Shown in pieces: positions 3,382 to 50,752 of a stretch of DNA of 64,000 nt; positions within the stretch are counted from its first letter, which is position 1; the number at the start of each line of letters is the position of its first letter. A model generated the notes under the pieces. That model searched no databases, had not been told where the DNA came from, and saw only the letters and a program-made list of their open reading frames with translations. The translations under genes were made by a program, and so were the position numbers. The DNA is from a virus. Location: the IMG/VR virus record IMGVR_UViG_3300023063_000001, positions 19,572 to 83,571 of that record, one strand, 5' to 3'.

Positions 3382-3576
3382 ATGTCCAGTTTAATGGTGA
3401 GTATTAAAGAAAAAGTTGGGGAATGCTCTATTAACTTTGAACTAGATGTAGAGTTTGACGTCGTGTATATCACTGAGAAAGTGGGAAAGCTTGTACAGAC
3501 AGAAGTAACCACTTTAAATAGTGGTAAAATTCCAGCAGGTATCCTACAATATTTTCAGAAGTACATTAAAGAATAA
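3382..3576 (+). CDS. Hypothetical protein
   Basis: Packed ORF. Confidence 0.5.
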   Translation: MSSLMVSIKEKVGECSINFELDVEFDVVYITEKVGKLVQTEVTTLNSGKIPAGILQYFQKYIKE

Positions 3577-3583
3577 TTAAGAG

Positions 3584-3904
3584 GTGAACGTGACTGATAA
3601 TCCTGATGCACAGGAACCAAAGAAAAAGAAATGGCATAAGGCCGTTGGGCGTGTTGCTTGGTCTTTAGCAAAAGGCCTATCCATTCCAATCCTTGCAGGT
3701 GCTTTGGCTTGGTGTGTGTCCTATCCCCTAGGTATGTATCAATGCCGTAATTACACGCTAGGACTGCACCTAGACGGCTGGAATTATACATGGTTCACTT
3801 GCTTTCTTAATGAAGATGGTAAGTGGTATACAAAAGAACAGTATGAAGCTAGTGCTGTAGGTGTACGACTTATTATTAGCCCTGATGTGAAGTTTCCAAA
3901 ATGA
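3584..3904 (+). CDS. Hypothetical membrane protein
   Basis: Hydrophobic segment LSIPILAGALAWCVSYPLG. Confidence 0.55.
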   Translation: MNVTDNPDAQEPKKKKWHKAVGRVAWSLAKGLSIPILAGALAWCVSYPLGMYQCRNYTLGLHLDGWNYTWFTCFLNEDGKWYTKEQYEASAVGVRLIISPDVKFPK

Positions 3905-4036
3905 CAATAATATTTCTTACAGTTTTCTTCTTCTGCTGCTGGGAAGCAATCATTACAGATGAGAATATGTTGGCAGCTAGATATGAAGCTATTTGGTTGA
4001 AGTTTTTAGAAGATACAGGGTTGGAGATTGATTAAT

Positions 4037-4059
4037 GGGGCCGTAAGGCCCTCCTTTTT
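4037..4059 (+). terminator. Intrinsic terminator
   Basis: GGGCC-GTAA-GGCCC followed by TCCTTTTT. Confidence 0.7.
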
Positions 4060-4078
4060 GAATAGGAGTTGGATATGG

Positions 4079-5074
4079 ATGAGTAAGCTTACTGCGGTCA
4101 TAGACCTAGACTACGTTAAGTACAGTGCTGCATCTGTTGGAGAAACACGTTCTATCACTGTTGTACATAAAGCATCGGGAAGGGAAAAAGAGTTTCCTAC
4201 ACGTACAGACTTTTATGGCCGAGACAAACTTAAATCAGGTGGATGGCTTGGAGAACTGAACGCTAAACGAGAAAGTCCTTTTCTTCTTGATGAATTTAGT
4301 ATAATCGATGTACAAACTCCCGAGCCTATTGATCACGTATTACAGATTGCAAAGACACAAGTAGAGAATGATCTTAAGAAACTTGGGACAAATAAATACA
4401 AAGCTTTCTTAGGGAAAGGTGAAAGCTTTCGTGTTGAACTGTCTACACTTCAAAAGTACAAGGCAAATCGAAAAGATATGCTTCGCCCTCTTCATATGGA
4501 TGCTGTGACAGAATACCTTGAACGTAAATTCAAAGCTGAGGTTGTTACATCAATTGAAGCCGATGATGCTTGTGTAATTGAGTGCTATGAAAACCCTAAC
4601 AATGTTATCCAAGGGTTAGATAAAGATTACTACTCCAGCCCTAATAAATTCTTTAATGTGAATAGGCCAGATGAAGGCATTATTGATGCTGATTGTTTTG
4701 GTAAGCTATGGCTAGATGATAAGGGAGATGTTCGTGGTGTTGGCAGAATGCATCTGTATTGGCAGATGTGTAGCAATGACACCAGTGACAACTATGCTGC
4801 CAACTGTTTCTCTGACCTTCGTTGGGCGGGAAAGTCAGCCTATAAATCCCTTGTAGAGTGTGGGTCTGACAAGGAGGCGTGGGACAAGATGAAAGAGGTT
4901 TTCACCCTACTTTATCCCGAGGAAAAGACTGTTTTAGGGTGGAGAAATGATCCTATCAGCGTAACATGGGATTACGTACTGAATGAGATGTTCATGATGG
5001 CTAGGATGTTAACTAAACGTGATGAACATCTAAACGCTTATGATATGATGGATGAAATGGGGGTGAGTTATTAG
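4079..5074 (+). CDS. 5'-3' exonuclease (T7 gp6/RNase H-like)
   Basis: VIDLD, FR..YKANR, IEADD, DKD and D.SDN motifs; AGGAG RBS before ATG 4079. Confidence 0.88.
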   Translation: MSKLTAVIDLDYVKYSAASVGETRSITVVHKASGREKEFPTRTDFYGRDKLKSGGWLGELNAKRESPFLLDEFSIIDVQTPEPIDHVLQIAKTQVENDLKKLGTNKYKAFLGKGESFRVELSTLQKYKANRKDMLRPLHMDAVTEYLERKFKAEVVTSIEADDACVIECYENPNNVIQGLDKDYYSSPNKFFNVNRPDEGIIDADCFGKLWLDDKGDVRGVGRMHLYWQMCSNDTSDNYAANCFSDLRWAGKSAYKSLVECGSDKEAWDKMKEVFTLLYPEEKTVLGWRNDPISVTWDYVLNEMFMMARMLTKRDEHLNAYDMMDEMGVSY

Positions 5075-7924: not shown

Positions 7925-8247
7925 TATACCTAGCCAGTCCCTACAGCTACAAAGCAGACAAAGAACTGATGCACACACGCTACCTTCAAGCTCTAGCTAA
8001 GGCAGCTGAGCTTACAAAAGAAGGATTGGCTGTGTTCTCGCCGATAGTTTCATCGCATCAGCTTTCCTTGTTTCACGATATGCCAACCACTTGGGATTTC
8101 TGGAGCAATATTGATTATAAATTTCTAGATGCCTCTAGTGAACTGTTTATACTTATGTTAGAATCCTGGGACAAGTCAGTAGGCGTAGCGGCTGAAATTA
8201 AGTATGCTGAACAGATTGGTATCCCTGTAACATTTATTTATCCTTAA
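7921..8247 (+). CDS. DUF1937 / nucleoside 2-deoxyribosyltransferase-fold protein
   Basis: IYLASPYS..VFSPI..W..SVGVAAEIKYA. Confidence 0.75.
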   Translation: MIYLASPYSYKADKELMHTRYLQALAKAAELTKEGLAVFSPIVSSHQLSLFHDMPTTWDFWSNIDYKFLDASSELFILMLESWDKSVGVAAEIKYAEQIGIPVTFIYP

Positions 8248-34855: not shown

Positions 34856-36376
34856 TTAATTTTCCTTATTTGAAGTAGATGAGTCTCCAGAGCTACCCGT
34901 TGCACTACCCGTACCTGAGGGAAGACCAGCCGCCAACCCTTCACCACTGGAACTGTCTGCTGGACCTAGAAGCTCATTAAGATCATCCTGACTCATATCC
35001 TCATCCACACGATCTGGAAGACCAATAATCTCAGCAATGTAGTTAATGTTCTTAGGGGTAGGGGCTACAAGACCGACAGCTTTAGTTCGTTGCAAAGCGC
35101 TAGAGAGTGCGTCAATATCCGTGGCGTCCACTTCACCATAGCAAAGCTTAGGCATATCTACAGGATTCCAACCATTAAGCTGTGCAAGCTGTTTAATCAC
35201 ATCATTATTGAATACATCTTGAATTTCCATCAAGGCTGTTTCAACTCGTGTGGCTACAATGCTTGTCTTGTTATCAGCAAGGCTAAAAGAACCTGTATTG
35301 TTCTGACCCATCTTCAACACATCAGCAAAGAATGACATTAGAATTTCTGTTGAATACCTGTCAATGACAGCACCAACATCAAAGCTTTTAGCTCCCGTAA
35401 CACCAGCCAACTCAAAGTTGAACATCTTGTTACCAGACTCATCATAGATGGTTGGAAGAATCAAACCCTCTTGTTCTTCACGATGTAAATTACGCATCAC
35501 TTTCTTTAGGTATTCGTAGGTGGCTTTATCAGAGTCAGAAGCACCTTCCACCATATATTGAACAGGGATAGAAAGAACTGGAAGCCCTCTCATATCCTTG
35601 CTTATACCAACAGCTTCAGCTTCTTCTAACGCCTTCTTGAACTTCCACGATTCCCAACAATAGATAAGAGGACTTTCACCTGTTGGGCTATTCTTACGAG
35701 CGTTGGTTCTAAACAACATAAACTTTTCACGGGGGATAAGAACTCCAGGTGAAATCTGTGTTGATTGAACAAACTGTGTAGTTGTTGGGTTATCTATGCC
35801 TGTGTTATTTACTTGCCACTGGCGAACACCTGTTACATTACGATTGTTAGCATCCATTTCCCAACGAGCAATAGTTTCTTGACCACGACAATAAATACCT
35901 TTAAGACCAATCAACCCATCGTTGTAATAAGAGCCATTAATCTTTAATCTTTTTCTAAAAACCTTTTCACAGAGCGAAAATCCGTAAGTGTTAAAAGAAA
36001 TAATCTCTTTAATTGTTTGAAAGAAACTTGTATCTAAGTCTTCAAAAAATACTTCTTCTAGAAACTTCTTTTTAGCTTTCTGATCTGGTGTGGCATTGTG
36101 AGGAACATCAAAGCTCCACTTAGTCTTGCTAATCATTGTTTCAACAAGCTGAATAGCAGAACTTACTGTTGCATCTTTACGCATCTGTTTAAATGTGTAA
36201 ATGCATTGTGGCCATTGCAATTCTTGTCTGTAGCCATCTAGGATATTGTTTCCTAGTTCTACACCCGGTTGACCAGATTCAGTGAACTTGAGACGTGGGA
36301 TTGTAGAATCCGTTCCCGTTGTTAATGTCGGCAACTCTGTAGTTGCCCCCACAGGAGCCTTTTTTGTTGCTGCCAT
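34856..36376 (-). CDS. Portal protein
   Basis: QMRKDATV, YGFS..EKV, PTGESPL, GSFSLAD; follows TerL. Confidence 0.9.
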   Translation of the reverse strand: MAATKKAPVGATTELPTLTTGTDSTIPRLKFTESGQPGVELGNNILDGYRQELQWPQCIYTFKQMRKDATVSSAIQLVETMISKTKWSFDVPHNATPDQKAKKKFLEEVFFEDLDTSFFQTIKEIISFNTYGFSLCEKVFRKRLKINGSYYNDGLIGLKGIYCRGQETIARWEMDANNRNVTGVRQWQVNNTGIDNPTTTQFVQSTQISPGVLIPREKFMLFRTNARKNSPTGESPLIYCWESWKFKKALEEAEAVGISKDMRGLPVLSIPVQYMVEGASDSDKATYEYLKKVMRNLHREEQEGLILPTIYDESGNKMFNFELAGVTGAKSFDVGAVIDRYSTEILMSFFADVLKMGQNNTGSFSLADNKTSIVATRVETALMEIQDVFNNDVIKQLAQLNGWNPVDMPKLCYGEVDATDIDALSSALQRTKAVGLVAPTPKNINYIAEIIGLPDRVDEDMSQDDLNELLGPADSSSGEGLAAGLPSGTGSATGSSGDSSTSNKEN

Positions 36377-36388
36377 TTTGGCTCCTAA

Positions 36389-37975
36389 TTAACGGATGTT
36401 GTTGAGAGGGTTACTGGTTCTTTCGAAACCAAAAGATTGCATGCCGGAGAGGAAGTTTGGTACAGTGCGTTTGGATGCTACAGCTTCGAAGGCATCCGAG
36501 CACGCATCACATAAATCATCGTGACCTGCCTCGCCACTACGACGGGTTCCATCAAACACCTCCACTTGATTGTAAAAAAAGGATAAATCATTGGTTACCC
36601 CGTTTTCAAAATCAGTAGCACAATTCTTTAGAATCTTCATACCACCGTTCATTACAATAGATGCAAAAGGCTTAAACCTATCAGCTTTTTTACCTTGTGC
36701 CCTTAACTGTCTGCACATAAAACCGGCTGATGAAATATCCCTAGATAAGACACTGTTTGTAAACTTAGCCCCAGGGCCTGGGTCCAAAGGGATAATTATA
36801 TCTGTCCTTTTCCCATCTTGATAAGCAGCTTCAAGGATAAAAGGTAGCCACTCTCCCGGAAGAATACGAGTCTGCTTGATGTCATGAATAAAATAAGTAC
36901 CATCTTTGAGGCGACTCATTTTCACTGAAACTGTATAGTCCGGAGAACTGTTCTTTTCACTTTTCTTGGAAAAGGCAAAATCATAAGCGCGGACTGTGCA
37001 ATCAATGTCTGTCCAAGCGGGTTCTTGACTTTCTTCAATGAACCACTCGCGGCGCACCATGCCTGAACCTTCTTCGCGGGCCTCCCACGAGCCATAAAGA
37101 AGAATTTCTTTTTGTACGCGTGGCAATCCTTCAAGGAATGCTATATAATTATCTTCAATGTATGGGTTGTCATAAACAGATGCTGAAATCCAAGCAAACG
37201 AAAGAGGTTTAATTTGCTTCTTATCCGTATCCGGCAACAAGTCGCCAAAGGAATCTCTTCGTCCATGTTTCTCAAACATCTGATCCCGAGATTCAGCCCA
37301 AATCATGTTGTTGCCGTCACGGATAAACCAGCGCACAACACCTTGTTTAGCTGGGTCAGGCCTGCCAAAGAACTCACTTCCCTCTGGATATAAGTACCAC
37401 CCAACCCACTTCTTCACCCAGCTATCAGGCGAGGGGTTCATGGTAGCCCTCATCACCGGTTTCATTTCTGCTTTTGTACGAAGGCGGGACAAAATATAAA
37501 GAAATTGACTTTCTTCAAACTGACAAAGTTCGTCTAGGACCGCTGAACTAATTTGTGCCCCTTGAAAATTGCCCGTATCATCAACACTTTCAAAGTGCGT
37601 AAAGGACACTTCAGCTTTCTTTTCTAAACCCTGCACCGGTCCAAAGTTAATCTTCATGTCCTTGATTCGAACACGAGCATTTTCATCAAAATCTTTATAT
37701 AGGCTTTTAGCTTCGTCCCAAATTGCTCCGGGTTTAGTAAGCATGGGGGTTGTTCGGCGAATCACAATACCCTTATAATTAGGTAAGTGAATATATTTCA
37801 TGTGATGAATAAGCGCGGCAAAAGTCTTCCCTCCGCCAGCTTGCCCCCCATAGAAGATTATATCAACTTCTTCACCTTCTTCTGTCGCATACTTACTACG
37901 TTTTCCTGTACCATCTCTTAGATTTAAGAAGAGGGCTTGAGGTCGGCTTGCGGGGGCAATAATTTGTCCTGACAT
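36389..37975 (-). CDS. terL: Terminase large subunit
   Basis: Walker A GGQAGGGKT, Walker B VLDE, TMNP, RAYDFA, HDDLCDA. Confidence 0.95.
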   Translation of the reverse strand: MSGQIIAPASRPQALFLNLRDGTGKRSKYATEEGEEVDIIFYGGQAGGGKTFAALIHHMKYIHLPNYKGIVIRRTTPMLTKPGAIWDEAKSLYKDFDENARVRIKDMKINFGPVQGLEKKAEVSFTHFESVDDTGNFQGAQISSAVLDELCQFEESQFLYILSRLRTKAEMKPVMRATMNPSPDSWVKKWVGWYLYPEGSEFFGRPDPAKQGVVRWFIRDGNNMIWAESRDQMFEKHGRRDSFGDLLPDTDKKQIKPLSFAWISASVYDNPYIEDNYIAFLEGLPRVQKEILLYGSWEAREEGSGMVRREWFIEESQEPAWTDIDCTVRAYDFAFSKKSEKNSSPDYTVSVKMSRLKDGTYFIHDIKQTRILPGEWLPFILEAAYQDGKRTDIIIPLDPGPGAKFTNSVLSRDISSAGFMCRQLRAQGKKADRFKPFASIVMNGGMKILKNCATDFENGVTNDLSFFYNQVEVFDGTRRSGEAGHDDLCDACSDAFEAVASKRTVPNFLSGMQSFGFERTSNPLNNIR

Positions 37976-38529
37976 TCAAACTCCTCAAGACTAAACCTTT
38001 TAAAAACAGACTCTATACAAGTTGAAGAAACATTATATTTAGCTGCAAAATCTTTTTGTAAAACACCTTCAACCCTTTTCTTGCAATTCGTAAGAATATC
38101 TATAACAGCTTCCTTGTCTAATTTAGCTAACTTACTTTCTAATTTAGAGGCTGTTACTTTAGTCAAACCCGTTGCAAGAGCATGTGATTTATTTTCAGCG
38201 TAGGTATTCCACTCAAGATTCTCTACTTGGTTGTTAGTCTTATTTCCATCAATATGGTTTATTGTAATCTTAGTTTCAGGATTAGGTATAAAAGATTTAG
38301 CAACTAGCCGATGGATCATACAAGTTTCCCTAACACCCTCTAAAGAATAAAAGTGTAGGGTTGGGTAGCCTGATGTACCAACTGAAAATTTAAGAATCTT
38401 TTCTTTATATGGGTAAACACGCCCATCTTTATAAATTATAGTTTTAGCTAAAGCTTTAACCCTACCTAAAGAACTAACTTGATATAAACCTTCATACCCT
38501 TGTATATCTTTCCAAACTTCTTCATTCAT
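37924..38529 (-). CDS. Free-standing HNH homing endonuclease (NUMOD4 + HNH_3)
   Basis: EVWKDIQGYEGLYQVSSLGRV; IHRLVA..INHIDGNKTNNQVENLEW; overlaps terL start by 52 nt. Confidence 0.9.
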   Translation of the reverse strand: MNEEVWKDIQGYEGLYQVSSLGRVKALAKTIIYKDGRVYPYKEKILKFSVGTSGYPTLHFYSLEGVRETCMIHRLVAKSFIPNPETKITINHIDGNKTNNQVENLEWNTYAENKSHALATGLTKVTASKLESKLAKLDKEAVIDILTNCKKRVEGVLQKDFAAKYNVSSTCIESVFKRFSLEEFECQDKLLPPQADLKPSS

Positions 38530-38559
38530 GTAATTTAGTCTCTTAATAAAAAGAAAACT

Positions 38560-38660
38560 GTGTGCCTCCCGGCAAGACATGAGTATAGGAGCGTTTCACA
38601 ACGAGTCCTGAATAGGTGAGGGCGTCATCCCGACGAGCCTCGGTGTTGCTTTTATACAAC
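38560..38660 (-). ncRNA. Structured leader with two related hairpins
   Basis: CGTC-GGGAT-GACG and AGGA..CGTT-GTGA-AACG..TCCT. Confidence 0.4.
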
Positions 38661-49095: not shown

Positions 49096-49515
49096 TTATT
49101 CGTTTTCTTCATACCCAACTTCACCGAGTTTAGGGGTGTAGTTAAGATTCAATCTAGTGACAGGAACAAGCTTTAGGATTTCCGCAGCGTCTTCTTCCTC
49201 TTCATCGCGTTTGCCTTCAAGACGTAGTTTAGTGAGAGTGGACTCTTCCTGAGAAGCAGCACGGTCTAAGGAAATGATACTAGTTATCACCCACTGACTT
49301 GTTGAAAGTTGTTTAGCATCAACATCCCTACCTTCAACACTATCTTTAATGTTCTCTAGAGCTTTAGGCTCAATTTCACGCAGCTTGGCCGCTGTATCAC
49401 GCAGCTTAGACTTCTGTATGCGAATTTTACTATTTGATTTAGTGTTACGGTTACTACGCTCCCCATCAAACTGTGTTGAGCGTTGTGCTGGACTAGGTGT
49501 CTTTTTGTTAGCCAT
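49096..49515 (-). CDS. Putative terminase small subunit
   Basis: Basic N-terminus (STQF..RSN), helical core, acidic tail; first gene of the packaging-direction cluster. Confidence 0.4.
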   Translation of the reverse strand: MANKKTPSPAQRSTQFDGERSNRNTKSNSKIRIQKSKLRDTAAKLREIEPKALENIKDSVEGRDVDAKQLSTSQWVITSIISLDRAASQEESTLTKLRLEGKRDEEEEDAAEILKLVPVTRLNLNYTPKLGEVGYEENE

Positions 49516-49536
49516 TTTAATTACCTATAATTGTTC

Positions 49537-49755
49537 ATATTTTTAAGGAAGCTCGTAGACAATACGTCTTACAATATTCAATAGAAGGAGAATCCTTAAA
49601 AATATAACTTCCAAAAGAGGAGGGCAATCAGAAGTTATAGGAGGCAAACACGCAGGAGGGAACGTGCGCCTTTAACACAAGACTAGAGGAGAAGGGAGGA
49701 TAGTCTTGTGGATGAAGACAGAGCTTTATGGAGGATTTACTTCTTAGCGCTCATG
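49537..49755 (-). ncRNA. Multi-hairpin RNA with CCUCC-containing loops
   Basis: Four to five stems with anti-SD loops; G.U extensions favour the - strand. Confidence 0.6.
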
Positions 49756-49764
49756 CCGGTGAAT

Positions 49765-50139
49765 CTATTGCTTTGGTCCGACGTATTCTAAAGTAAACAT
49801 ACGATTTCCCATCTCATCAGTAATGGCAGGCAAAATCATTCCTTCACTCTCACCATTATTAATTTTTCTAAGCTGTTCTTTTAGAAGTTTGTAAATAGCC
49901 AGATCTTTTTCTTTTGCTGATTCTTGCATATATTGAATAGGTACATGAAGAACATATGCACCATTACAGTCTTTAAAATCAGTAACAGCTACAGCTTCTT
50001 GTTCTTCATATAACTTAAGTTTTTCATAAAGCTCAATAGCCATACTACGATACATAGGGCCATCATTATGCTGACGAGGGCCTGCGTAGTGTGCAGAAAG
50101 ATGGGCAGCAACAATAGAATGTTTTTCAAAATCAGACAT
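49765..50139 (-). CDS. Stand-alone portal-fragment paralogue (124 aa)
   Basis: About 37/77 identities by eye to the portal segment at 35403-35626; GAGGA RBS. Confidence 0.85.
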   Translation of the reverse strand: MSDFEKHSIVAAHLSAHYAGPRQHNDGPMYRSMAIELYEKLKLYEEQEAVAVTDFKDCNGAYVLHVPIQYMQESAKEKDLAIYKLLKEQLRKINNGESEGMILPAITDEMGNRMFTLEYVGPKQ

Positions 50140-50164
50140 TTTTATTCCTCAAAATTAAAATAAG

Positions 50165-50375
50165 TAAAACAAGAAATCCGGTTTTAGACACACTCCGGCA
50201 AGTGGTTTACAGAGGAAGGCGTACGCATCTATTAGCTAACGAATTTAATCGCTACATCTCTAGAGGAGAACCTTTGCAGGTTCAGCCACTTCCTGATAGA
50301 GAGTGTATTCCTCTATCCGTCTACAGGGTGGAGGGGCCTAATACACAACCAGTCTCCAAATCGTCTTACGCTGTA
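50165..50375 (-). ncRNA. Structured RNA downstream of tRNA-Thr
   Basis: GATAGAG/CTCTATC, GAACCT-GCAA-AGGTTC (GNRA), AGGAAG/CTTCCT closing helix. Confidence 0.45.
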
Positions 50376-50379
50376 AAGA

Positions 50380-50455
50380 TGGTGCCGTCACTAAGATTTG
50401 AACTCAGGACCTACGCATTACAAGTGCGTTGCTCTACCTACTGAGCTATAACGGC
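50380..50455 (-). tRNA. tRNA-Thr(UGU)
   Basis: Cloverleaf, anticodon arm ACGCA-CTTGTAA-TGCGT, GTTCAAA, encoded CCA. Confidence 0.95.
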
Positions 50456-50460
50456 ATATT

Positions 50461-50546
50461 TGGTGGGTGTTGATGGATTCGAACCACCGATGTATCAATG
50501 TACGGATTTACAGTCCGCTGTCTTCGCCACTAGACTAAAAACACCC
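50461..50546 (-). tRNA. tRNA-Tyr(GUA)
   Basis: GCGGA-CTGTAAA-TCCGT, long variable arm, GGTTCGAATCC, CCA. Confidence 0.93.
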
Positions 50547-50551
50547 AAGGA

Positions 50552-50628
50552 TGGCTGGTAGTAGTGGACTCGAACCACTCATCTGTAGATTAACAGTCTA
50601 CGACCCACGCCCGGTGAGATCACTACCA
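50552..50628 (-). tRNA. tRNA-Asn(GUU) with atypical D arm
   Basis: GTAGA-CTGTTAA-TCTAC, GGTTCGAGTCC, acceptor TGGTAGT/ACTACCA, GCCA end. Confidence 0.85.
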
Positions 50629-50722: not shown

Positions 50723-50752
50723 ATTATAGACACATTATTCTAATACTGTCAA
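50723..50752 (-). promoter_or_regulatory. Consensus sigma70 promoter for the tRNA cluster
   Basis: TTGACA-18 nt-TATAAT. Confidence 0.85.

What the first reader, a model, noticed from the sequence alone, without database searches (positions are those of the whole stretch)
49765..50139. Stand-alone mini-portal: a 124-aa gene duplicating an internal segment of the portal protein
Seen: its last ~77 residues (EEQEAVAVTDFKDCNGAYVLHVPIQYMQESAKEKDLAIYKLLKEQLRKINNGESEGMILPAITDEMGNRMFTLEYVG) align with the phage's own portal at 35403-35626 (EEAEAVGIS--KDMRGLPVLSIPVQYMVEGASDSDKATYEYLKKVMRNLHREEQEGLILPTIYDESGNKMFNFELAG), about 37/77 identities counted by eye with one gap. It has its own GAGGA RBS and an intact frame, and lies 14 kb from the portal, downstream of the strong tRNA promoter. 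Known: the portal stem/clip is the outward face that binds TerL and the head-tail adaptor, and portals are recognised by Avs4-type STAND sensors. Inference: this segment is the stem-clip, and the protein is either a decoy that titrates portal-sensing defence, a regulator of packaging timing, or an inhibitor of competing phages' terminases.
Basis: partly seen in the sequence, partly recalled or inferred. Interest (0 to 1): 0.9.

Follow-up and report, generated by a model that had tools for sequence, protein, structure and literature searches.

The report
Free-standing portal clip-domain mini-protein
This phage carries a small, strongly conserved gene that encodes only the outward-facing "clip" tip of its DNA-packaging portal protein; it belongs to a widespread, unstudied family of such mini-proteins that probably act as molecular mimics, perhaps as bait for host immune sensors.

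Summary
ORF 49765-50139 (-) encodes 124 aa, and residues 42-121 match the phage's own Mu-type portal (residues 248-325) at 38/80 identities, E 6e-22. The matched piece is the end of a stem helix plus the clip.

It is not a one-off or recent duplicate. 27 stand-alone homologues of 111-128 aa exist in metagenomes. About 36 more distant cluster representatives of 62-216 aa are also free clip proteins. The family is PHROG 12381, function unknown. It occurs in cultured Pseudomonas phages: the Nankokuvirus PAK_P5 group and the Otagovirus phages PPSC2 and PHB09. There it always lies outside the head module.

In the window's subfamily the clip part is under strong purifying selection (omega about 0.1) and changes more slowly than the portal's own clip.

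Function is untested. My best reading (0.35) is a soluble clip mimic that occupies a host portal-clip sensor of the SpbK or Avs4 kind. The main rival is a packaging or neck-timing modulator.

The scan has noted free clip genes in other phage lineages before. I found no paper describing them.

The parts
49765..50139 (-). Mini-portal gene, 124 aa, including the stop codon
   Evidence: ORF list. 27 stand-alone homologues. Whole-gene omega 0.16-0.23 against three relatives.
49777..49962 (-). Clip-like module, residues 60-121 (strand, loop, helix, strand-loop-strand by analogy with portal clips)
   Evidence: All 27 invariant columns of the 28-member family lie in residues 60-122. Gap-free 62-column alignment with portal clips. 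Omega 0.06-0.10. The Atlas model aligns residues 55/57-124 to Portal_Mu models, TM 0.45-0.48.
49963..50139 (-). Variable N-terminal module, residues 1-59. Its last part (about 34-50) still matches the end of the portal stem helix.
   Evidence: Residues 34-121 matched the portal in the six-frame search. At least two unrelated N-terminal types occur in the family. Omega 0.36-0.51.
50146..50150 (-). GAGGA ribosome-binding site
   Evidence: Read from the sequence.
50140..50204 (-). Conserved leader directly upstream of the start codon (CACTTRCCGGAGTG ... AACCGGATTTCTTGTTTTA ...)
   Evidence: Nearly invariant in all 4 loci aligned, although synonymous sites of the gene are near saturation. Each half occurs once in the window. 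No convincing RNA structure.
50380..50625 (-). tRNA-Thr, tRNA-Tyr and tRNA-Asn cluster upstream on the same strand
   Evidence: ARAGORN and Rfam tRNA hits.
50723..50752 (-). Sigma-70-type promoter-like site, TTGACA-18-TATAAT, 12 of 12
   Evidence: It is a consensus match only, and the scan as a whole is not enriched over shuffles.
49516..49764 (-). Highly structured spacer between the mini gene and the next gene
   Evidence: MFE -65.4 kcal/mol against -42.1 +/- 3.7 for shuffles, z -6.3. Also flagged by another first-reader note.
49096..49515 (-). Conserved 139-aa basic/acidic protein of unknown family, next gene downstream
   Evidence: Homologues in all 4 related loci, directly after the mini gene in 3 of 4. 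No PHROG, Pfam or PDB match.
34856..36376 (-). Full-length portal gene, 506 aa
   Evidence: Portal_Mu, phrog_113 and solved portal homologues.
35402..35635 (-). Portal segment homologous to the mini-protein (residues 248-325: stem-helix end plus clip)
   Evidence: BLASTP.

Best explanation
SHOWN. The gene encodes a soluble, free-standing paralogue of the portal clip domain plus the end of the preceding stem helix. It has no wing, crown or tunnel parts. It belongs to a large family of such mini-proteins (PHROG 12381 and relatives). Family members sit outside the head-morphogenesis module of phages that have Mu-type portals. In the window's subfamily the clip part is under strong purifying selection.

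INFERRED. It is made from the host-type promoter and tRNA transcript, so probably before or independently of the portal. It then acts as a molecular mimic of the portal's exposed docking tip, above all the conserved C-terminal strand-loop-strand ILPxxxD(P)ExxxxxF.

MOST LIKELY PARTNER (inference). A host immune sensor that recognises portal clips. [quoted passage not shown] A free monovalent clip would occupy the sensor without giving it the scaffold or full surface needed for activation.
For: - Homology to the own portal clip: E 6e-22.
- Family size: 27 near-length homologues and about 36 further short cluster representatives, most starting with M and ending just after the last clip strand.
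- Family identity: 29 of 57 members hit phrog_12381. That profile also hits the portals of PAK_P5, PPSC2 and PHB09 at E 6e-10 to 4e-12.
- Selection: the clip part has omega 0.06-0.10. L005 and L006 have 66 of 66 identical residues at pS 0.47.
- Slower than the phage's own packaging proteins over the same genome pair (window against L003): mini clip dN 0.19 against portal clip dN 0.45; TerL 37% identity; portal 42%; mini 66%. This points to a partner that does not drift with the phage's packaging proteins.
- Position: outside the head module in 5 of 5 genomes examined. The window and L003 have it at the head of an arm at a divergent junction. PPSC2 and PHB09 have it beside PhoH, ClpP, dCMP deaminase and ligase. 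PAK_P5 has it beside an exonuclease in the replication block.
- Patchy distribution, as for accessory genes: 41 of 229 matching GenBank records hold a close full-length PAK_P5-type copy, and Pakpunavirus records show only the portal.
- The loop of the C-terminal hairpin matches the resident portal lineage in 5 of 5 genomes: D-ExGNxMF or DPE[ST]RxxLF.
- Modular, shuffled N- and C-terminal additions and one tandem double.
- Clip-directed sensors exist: SpbK docks on clip domains, and Avs4 contacts stem, clip and wing (PMC12847820, passages read).
Against:
- The window subfamily's invariant polar residues differ from the portal consensus at the same columns: H6, K17, K19, Q30, K33, T48, R54, T57 and Y60 of the 62-column module. 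That fits a new binding surface as well as mimicry.
- L003's mini is less like its own portal (20/62) than like the window's portal (27/62), so it is not tailored to the resident portal.
- The loop match rests on only about two independent lineages.
- In Otagovirus the pattern is reversed. The portal clip is 63/63 identical, but the syntenic minis are 25/60. 'More conserved than the portal' therefore holds only for the window's subfamily.
- The gene has the same orientation as the structural genes and sits next to a conserved 139-aa protein that another note calls TerS.
- Early expression is inferred from one consensus promoter only.
Confidence: 0.35

Rival explanations
1. Packaging or neck-timing modulator. 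The free clip binds the phage's own large terminase or head-to-tail adaptor, both of which dock on the portal clip. It keeps them soluble or inactive, or delays their docking until procapsids or filled heads are ready.
For: - The clip is the docking site of terminase and adaptor, and the adaptor competes with TerL (PMC13338283, PMC13450770 and bioRxiv 10.1101/2023.02.24.529869, passages).
- The gene has the same orientation as the structural arm, ahead of the tail-fibre, TerL and portal genes.
- A conserved 139-aa protein follows it in 3 of 4 related loci.
- The hairpin loop matches the resident portal lineage in 5 of 5 genomes.
- Carriers examined all have Mu-type portals (5 of 5).
Against: - The mini is more conserved than TerL (37%) and the portal (42%) across the same genome pair, and does not follow its own portal in L003.
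- It lies in replication or nucleotide-metabolism blocks in Nankokuvirus and Otagovirus.
- It is absent from Pakpunavirus, which has a very similar portal, so it is not needed for packaging by this portal type.
- The 139-aa neighbour matched no terminase family.
Confidence: 0.25
2. Cap or poison subunit for portal assembly. The free clip uses the native clip-to-clip interface to bind portal monomers. This could chaperone or shield the phage's own monomers before ring assembly, or spoil the rings of co-infecting relatives.
For: - All four portal subdomains, clip included, are said to contribute to inter-subunit contacts (PMC12847820 passage, AlphaFold model of YonE).
- Avs4 is said to bind monomers in a way incompatible with oligomerisation (same paper), so masking monomers could pay.
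- Columns conserved in both minis and portals (P8, Y11, A16, I43-L44-P45, D49, G52, F56) could include interface residues.
Against: - Portal-conserved K21, E38, Q39 and G41 are relaxed in the minis.
- There is no structural test.
- A self-poison would be costly.
- High conservation across phages with 42%-identical portals argues against a partner that co-varies with the portal.
Confidence: 0.1
3. Neofunctionalised small binding module. The clip fold was reused for a task unrelated to portal partners, such as binding a host takeover target or acting with the neighbouring early proteins. The resemblance to the portal is historical only.
For: - Subfamily-specific invariant polar residues differ from the portal consensus.
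- Variable accessory modules and tandem forms occur.
- Location is among early or metabolic genes.
- The syntenic Otagovirus copies diverge fast.
Against: - The best-kept part in all subfamilies is the same hairpin motif that portals keep.
- Its loop variant follows the resident portal lineage in 5 of 5 genomes.
- All carriers examined have the matching portal type.
Confidence: 0.2
4. Non-functional leftover of a partial portal duplication or recombination.
For: HNH homing endonuclease genes lie next to TerL in the window and in L003, so the region does suffer DNA traffic.
Against: - Intact frame with an RBS.
- 27 full-length homologues.
- Omega 0.06-0.10 in the clip part, with 66 of 66 residues kept at pS 0.47.
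- A conserved dedicated leader.
Confidence: 0.02

Closest known systems
Clip domain of Mu-type portal proteins (Pfam PF06074). The nearest solved relative of the window's portal is the 479-aa chain 11bp/9zbs. I take this to be Pakpunavirus P7-1 gp67 from its length and kinship; no tool named it.
   Same: The same 62-residue module, alignable without gaps, with the shared motif hhhxhPxxY...A...K...G...ILPxxxDxxGxxxF. The Atlas model of the mini overlays Portal_Mu models over 68 residues.
   Different: No wing, crown, second stem helix or tunnel loop. It is too short to form a channel. No member reaches Pfam Portal_Mu (0 of 57). It is encoded away from the head genes. The portal-conserved K21 and E38-Q39-x-G41 are relaxed.
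PHROG 12381 (function unknown): PAK_P5 gp056 (91 aa) and its Nankokuvirus homologues; also PPSC2 orf164 and PHB09_023 of Otagovirus
   Same: Stand-alone clip-only proteins. The window protein hits the profile (E 4.6e-4), as do 29 of 57 family members. The profile also hits portals. The genes lie outside the head module.
   Different: The window's subfamily has a 55-60-residue N-terminal addition that includes a stem-helix remnant. It carries the GN-type hairpin loop rather than the PE[ST]RQ type. It is only 15-18 of 62 identical to those proteins.
Portal-clip sensing by bacterial immunity (SpbK-YonE of Bacillus subtilis SPbeta; Avs4-portal)
   Same: These supply a known class of partners that bind exactly the part this protein consists of (PMC12847820, passages read).
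   Different: No such sensor is known for this uncultured leaf-litter phage's host. No phage-encoded clip decoy is described in the papers I could search. The known SPbeta escape is a point mutation in the clip helix.
Free clip mini-genes noted by this scan in other phage lineages (T4-type jumbo phages, crAss-like, Bxz1-like, phage G-like)
   Same: The same idea: a small selected gene holding only the portal clip, away from the head module (AI notes, not checked by me).
   Different: They derive from other portal families, so they are analogous rather than homologous to this one as far as shown.

Membership tests
Portal protein (Portal_Mu, PF06074) | Full architecture: wing, two stem helices, clip, tunnel loop and crown, about 450-510 aa | tested here: not met
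   The protein has 124 aa and no Portal_Mu hit at E<=1. Only portal residues 248-325 are matched. It is not a portal.
Portal clip domain (as a domain) | Significant sequence homology to the clip segment of bona fide portals | tested here: met
   E 6e-22 to the own portal. The family profile hits the solved portal 11bp at residues 230-293, E 3.6e-7. It also hits 21 full-length portals at their residues 190-322.
Portal clip domain (as a domain) | Fold: three strands and one helix, lying between two stem helices (PMC12847820 passage) | tested here: inconclusive
The Atlas's own low-confidence model (pLDDT 0.56) aligns residues 55/57-124 to Portal_Mu models at TM 0.45-0.48. Mapping to the P23-45 clip helix 263-275 through the Pfam profile is approximate.
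PHROG 12381 (stand-alone clip proteins, unknown function) | Match to the family profile over the clip module in a protein of about 60-130 aa | tested here: met
   Window protein: E 4.6e-4, residues 56-110 against profile 10-64 of 91. 29 of 57 relatives match, best E 3.5e-10. The window match is weak, so it is a distant subfamily.
Anti-defence decoy of a structural-protein sensor | Binds the sensor and lowers its activation; deletion sensitises the phage to that defence | not testable with these tools
Small terminase / packaging accessory | Homology to a terminase family, or a conserved position directly beside TerL | tested here: not met
   Neither the mini nor its 139-aa neighbour matches any terminase family. 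The gene directly before TerL is an HNH endonuclease.

The most novel reading that the evidence does not exclude
Free clip domains are a general phage counter-measure against immunity that senses portals. Phages make, early and in excess, a monovalent copy of the exact hairpin their own portal exposes. The copy soaks up SpbK-like or Avs4-like sensors without giving them the ring or full surface they need to fire. The trick has arisen or spread in several unrelated portal families.
Probability: 0.3. Interest if true: 0.85.

Novelty: new variant of a known kind. Interest (0 to 1): 0.63.

Why it matters
Portals are among the few phage proteins that bacterial immune sensors are known to recognise, and the clip is where at least one sensor docks. 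A widespread, selected family of free clip domains has no assigned function and no paper that I could find. The family is present in well-studied therapeutic Pseudomonas phages of the PAK_P3/KPP10 group.

Two outcomes would each be of interest. It could be a new class of structural-protein decoys, or a new layer of control over terminase and adaptor docking. Because cultured carriers with genetic tools and transcriptomes exist, the question can be tested directly by deletion, pull-down and plating on defined defence backgrounds.

Tried and rejected
**Structure and complex prediction.** Both were unavailable. There is therefore no model, no fold search and no test of self-association or of binding to TerL, adaptor or portal.

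Co-variation of mini with portal could be examined in only five genomes.

**Origin of the family.**
- A careful tree of 79 rows and 62 columns put 50 of 52 minis on one side of a branch (98/92). P0071 and P0084 fell beside a portal.
- I first read this as one old origin. AU tests do not support that firmly.
- Trees that join the Pseudomonas-phage minis to their own portals are not rejected (p 0.61, quick tree).
- Trees that join the window-type minis to the window-type portal are not rejected either (p 0.79 quick; p 0.49, delta lnL 1.5, careful).
- Single versus repeated origin is therefore unresolved. The quick free trees were poorer than the constrained ones.
- Rows left out of the trees: 11 of 28 near-identical members of the window subfamily, then 9 more in the 73-row set; P0060 (tandem); P0085 (broken); the duplicate of P0035.

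**'More conserved than the portal' as a general rule.** Rejected. It holds for the window subfamily. It is reversed in Otagovirus.

**The 139-aa neighbour as TerS.** No support from PHROGs, Pfam or PDB profiles.

**RNA structure in the conserved leader.** The consensus fold is weak, with no covariation. The only Rfam hits were the tRNAs plus sub-threshold chance hits.

**Expression.** No RNA holder is listed. The only run is the probable source sample, a leaf-litter metagenome.

**Other negative results.**
- tblastn of P0029 against GenBank phages found nothing.
- Atlas feature hits were all under 0.8, so they were not used.
- Literature searches found no phage paper for portal decoy, mimic, paralog or mini-portal. 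Supplements were closed, so expression tables of PAK_P3/PAK_P4 that might list the gp056 homologue could not be seen.

Full report
**1. What is there**

The minus-strand ORF 49765..50139 encodes 124 residues. A GAGGA lies six bases before its ATG.

BLASTP against the 506-aa product of 34856..36376 (-) gives 38 identities in 80 columns with one two-residue gap, E 6e-22. Mini residues 42-121 align to portal residues 248-325.

The 506-aa protein is the portal:
- Pfam Portal_Mu, E 2.3e-22, and phrog_113, E 1.2e-81.
- Solved portals at E 1e-101 (11bp/9zbs, 479 aa), plus 9mt4, 9c39, 9cc7 and phi92 gp120.

The window is bases 19572-83571 of an 83,571-bp IMG/VR virus record with terminal repeats. A six-frame search of the whole record finds the motif only in these two genes.

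**2. Which part of the portal it is**

Evidence that the segment is the clip plus the end of the preceding stem helix:
- The 62-residue core of the match (GLPVLSIP...FNFELAG in the portal) aligns without a single gap to the same stretch of 23 other portal sequences (full-length or fragments) and of 52 short proteins.
- Papers describe the clip as three strands and one helix joining the two long stem helices. It forms the base of the ring and serves as docking station for terminase and tail (PMC12847820, passages).
- In P23-45 the clip helix and adjacent loop are residues 263-275 (PMC7234808, passages). The Pfam P23-45 profile and the PDB hits align window-portal residues 205/206-309/310 to P23-45 positions 184/185-281/282. 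The clip helix therefore falls inside the duplicated stretch. This mapping is approximate.
- The six-frame match starts at mini residue 34, so the mini also keeps the last turns of the preceding stem helix.
- The ESM Atlas's own model of the protein (low confidence, pLDDT 0.56) overlays residues 55/57-124 on Portal_Mu models, TM 0.45-0.48.

**3. It is a family, not an accident**

*Close homologues.* A length-restricted search of 5.8 billion proteins gave 27 homologues of 111-128 aa at 46-73% identity. Some sit on contigs of up to 125 kb. All 27 invariant columns lie in residues 60-122. The N-terminal 55-60 residues fall into at least two unrelated types.

*Distant relatives.* A profile search of 1.84 billion cluster representatives gave 64 hits at E <= 1e-3:

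| Group | Count | Note |
|---|---|---|
| Full-length portals | 21 | 401-822 aa, matched at their residues 190-322; best score 52 bits, against 160 or more within the family |
| Partial portals | 2 | 300-360 aa |
| Short proteins | 41 | 221 aa or less |

I read 39 of the short proteins, plus the two already held. Four are portal fragments and one is a broken mini. About 36 are complete small ORFs that start with M and end just after the last clip strand. Variants include:
- C-terminal additions (P0041, 42, 45, 66, 79, 80, 81).
- N-terminal additions (P0030, 53, 64).
- One tandem double (P0060).

*Database status.* 29 of 57 aligned members hit phrog_12381, function unknown. None of the 57 hits a portal Pfam family.

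**4. Cultured carriers**

- phrog_12381 is the family of PAK_P5 gp056, 91 aa, KC862301 37720-37995, Nankokuvirus (E 4.9e-61). The same profile hits the portals of PAK_P5, PPSC2 and PHB09 at E 6e-10 to 4e-12.
- tblastn with gp056 finds 229 GenBank phage records. 41 of them hold a full-length copy at 60% identity or more. The rest show only the portal.
- The Otagovirus phages PPSC2 (orf164, 62 aa) and PHB09 (PHB09_023, 65 aa) carry clip-only genes.
- Pakpunavirus records show one place only, the portal.

*Position of the gene:*

| Genome | Location |
|---|---|
| PAK_P5 | Beside a putative exonuclease in the replication block |
| PPSC2, PHB09 | At a divergent junction, followed by PhoH, ClpP, dCMP deaminase and ligase |
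| Window | First protein gene after a tRNA cluster behind a 12-of-12 sigma-70 consensus, 13.4 kb from the portal |
| L003 | First gene of the arm that runs into TerL and portal; PhoH and a ClpP-like gene lie on the divergent arm |

For PAK_P4, the late region is gp001-gp034 and the early region gp080-gp124 (PMC5563952, section 12). I could not see the per-gene tables, because supplements were closed.

**5. Selection**

Nei-Gojobori estimates:

| Comparison | aa identity | dN | dS | omega |
|---|---|---|---|---|
| Mini clip part, window vs L003 | 72% | 0.19 | 1.85 | 0.10 |
| Mini N-terminal part, window vs L003 | - | - | - | 0.46 |
| Portal clip, same two genomes | 48% | 0.45 | 2.06 | - |
| Whole portal, same two genomes | - | 0.59 | - | - |

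- L005 against L006: 66 of 66 clip residues are identical at pS 0.47.
- Between the window and L003, TerL is 37% identical, the portal 42% and the 139-aa neighbour 45%.
- At about equal synonymous distance, the mini's clip is therefore the slowest-changing of these proteins. That argues for function and against recent transfer.

This is not universal. PPSC2 and PHB09 have portals that are 87% identical with identical clip segments (63/63). Their syntenic minis are only 25/60 identical, and the upstream neighbour is 50% identical.

**6. Relation to the resident portal**

Over the 62 columns:
- The window mini matches its own portal at 30/62 and the other four portals at 20-22.
- The L003 mini matches its own portal at 20/62, but the window's portal at 27/62.
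- The three Pseudomonas-phage minis match own-lineage portals best (19-24).
- So 4 of 5 minis match their own lineage best.

The loop of the C-terminal hairpin follows the resident portal in 5 of 5 genomes:
- D-ExGNxMF in the window and L003.
- DPE[ST]RxxLF, with a one-residue insertion, in PAK_P5, PPSC2 and PHB09.

This covers only about two independent lineages. The hairpin is also the best-conserved part of all minis and of portals.

*Origin.* A careful tree puts 50 of 52 minis on one side of a branch (98/92). AU tests do not reject trees that join minis to their resident portal lineage (p 0.61, 0.79 and 0.49). Whether the family arose once or repeatedly is open.

**7. How it may work**

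What the papers say about clip partners:
- The adaptor's C-arm wraps the clip and stem and competes with TerL (PMC13338283, passages). In phi92 it extends the clip sheet (PMC13450770, passages).
- TerL contacts the clip asymmetrically in HK97 (bioRxiv 10.1101/2023.02.24.529869, passages).
- SpbK's N-terminal domain docks on the clips of the assembled ring, and this clustering activates its NADase.

A free, probably early-made clip could compete for any of these partners. I favour a host sensor, at 0.35, for three reasons:
- The window subfamily is more constrained than the phage's own packaging proteins and does not track its own portal in L003.
- The gene is patchy, and lies among early or metabolic genes in cultured phages.
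- Its additions are shuffled, as in accessory counter-defence genes.

Against this:
- No sensor or host is known.
- The subfamily's invariant polar residues differ from the portal consensus.
- The gene is co-oriented with the structural genes.

A packaging or neck-timing role gets 0.25. A reused binding module gets 0.2. A portal cap or poison gets 0.1. Junk is excluded by selection.

**8. Novelty**

The family exists in PHROGs without function.
- No paper in the searched library holds all three of 'portal protein', 'clip domain' and 'decoy'.
- The terms portal mimic, portal decoy, portal paralog and portal-like domain had no occurrence in any of the 20 papers listed (22 held at least one of the six terms). 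The 'mini-portal' hits were not about phages (arthroscopy, tendon surgery, ultrasound). The 'portal clip domain' hits concerned full portals.
- The scan's own notes report analogous free clip genes in T4-type jumbo, crAss-like, Bxz1-like and phage G-like phages. I did not check these.

I class it as a new variant of a known kind: a known domain in a new, free-standing and selected form, with its role untested.

Noticed in passing
window 50140-50204 (-); L003 about 8015-8078; L005 and L006 upstream of the mini start: A roughly 65-base block directly before the mini start codon is nearly invariant in all 4 loci, although synonymous sites in the gene are near saturation. It reads CACTTRCCGGAGTG, then a variable insert, then AACCGGATTTCTTGTTTTA...TTTTAAT. 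Each half is unique in the window. CACT...AGTG is an inverted repeat, so it may be an operator or promoter. No convincing RNA fold was found.
   Followed up: partly
window 49516-49764 (-): The spacer after the mini gene folds far better than shuffles (z -6.3) into several hairpins with C/U-rich loops. Another first-reader note reads them as anti-Shine-Dalgarno loops. The spacer may separate the mini transcript from the downstream genes.
   Followed up: partly
window 49096-49515 (-); L003 10794-11186; L005 1306-1737; L006 1611-2021: A conserved 130-143-aa protein with a basic N-terminus (F-G-x-x-SNRNT-x-x-NSK) and an acidic tail follows the mini gene directly in 3 of 4 loci. It matches no PHROG, Pfam or PDB family. 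Another note calls it TerS; I found no support for that.
   Followed up: partly
window 37924-38580 (-); L003 13748-15036: An HNH homing endonuclease (NUMOD4 + HNH_3) overlaps the start of TerL in the window. In L003 an HNH endonuclease sits between a 213-aa ORF that matches the N-terminal part of TerL profiles and the 505-aa TerL. This may be a split or invaded terminase gene.
   Followed up: no
proteins P0060, P0030, P0053, P0064, P0021-P0028 (metagenome): The family is modular. P0060 holds two clip modules in tandem. An N-terminal module 'MSKVTVTK.G..V.I..D.AG.L.L' occurs in two separate clip subgroups. P0030 carries both N-terminal module types before the clip.
   Followed up: no
proteins P0071 and P0084 (metagenome): Two 117-123-aa minis group with portal P0039 (95/84) rather than with the other minis. 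This hints at a second, separate derivation from a portal.
   Followed up: no
L007 (PPSC2) 3442-4189; L008 (PHB09) 3564-4189: In both Otagovirus phages the mini gene overlaps the end of a conserved upstream gene (143-189 aa, 50% identical between the two phages). This suggests translational coupling with that unknown protein.
   Followed up: no
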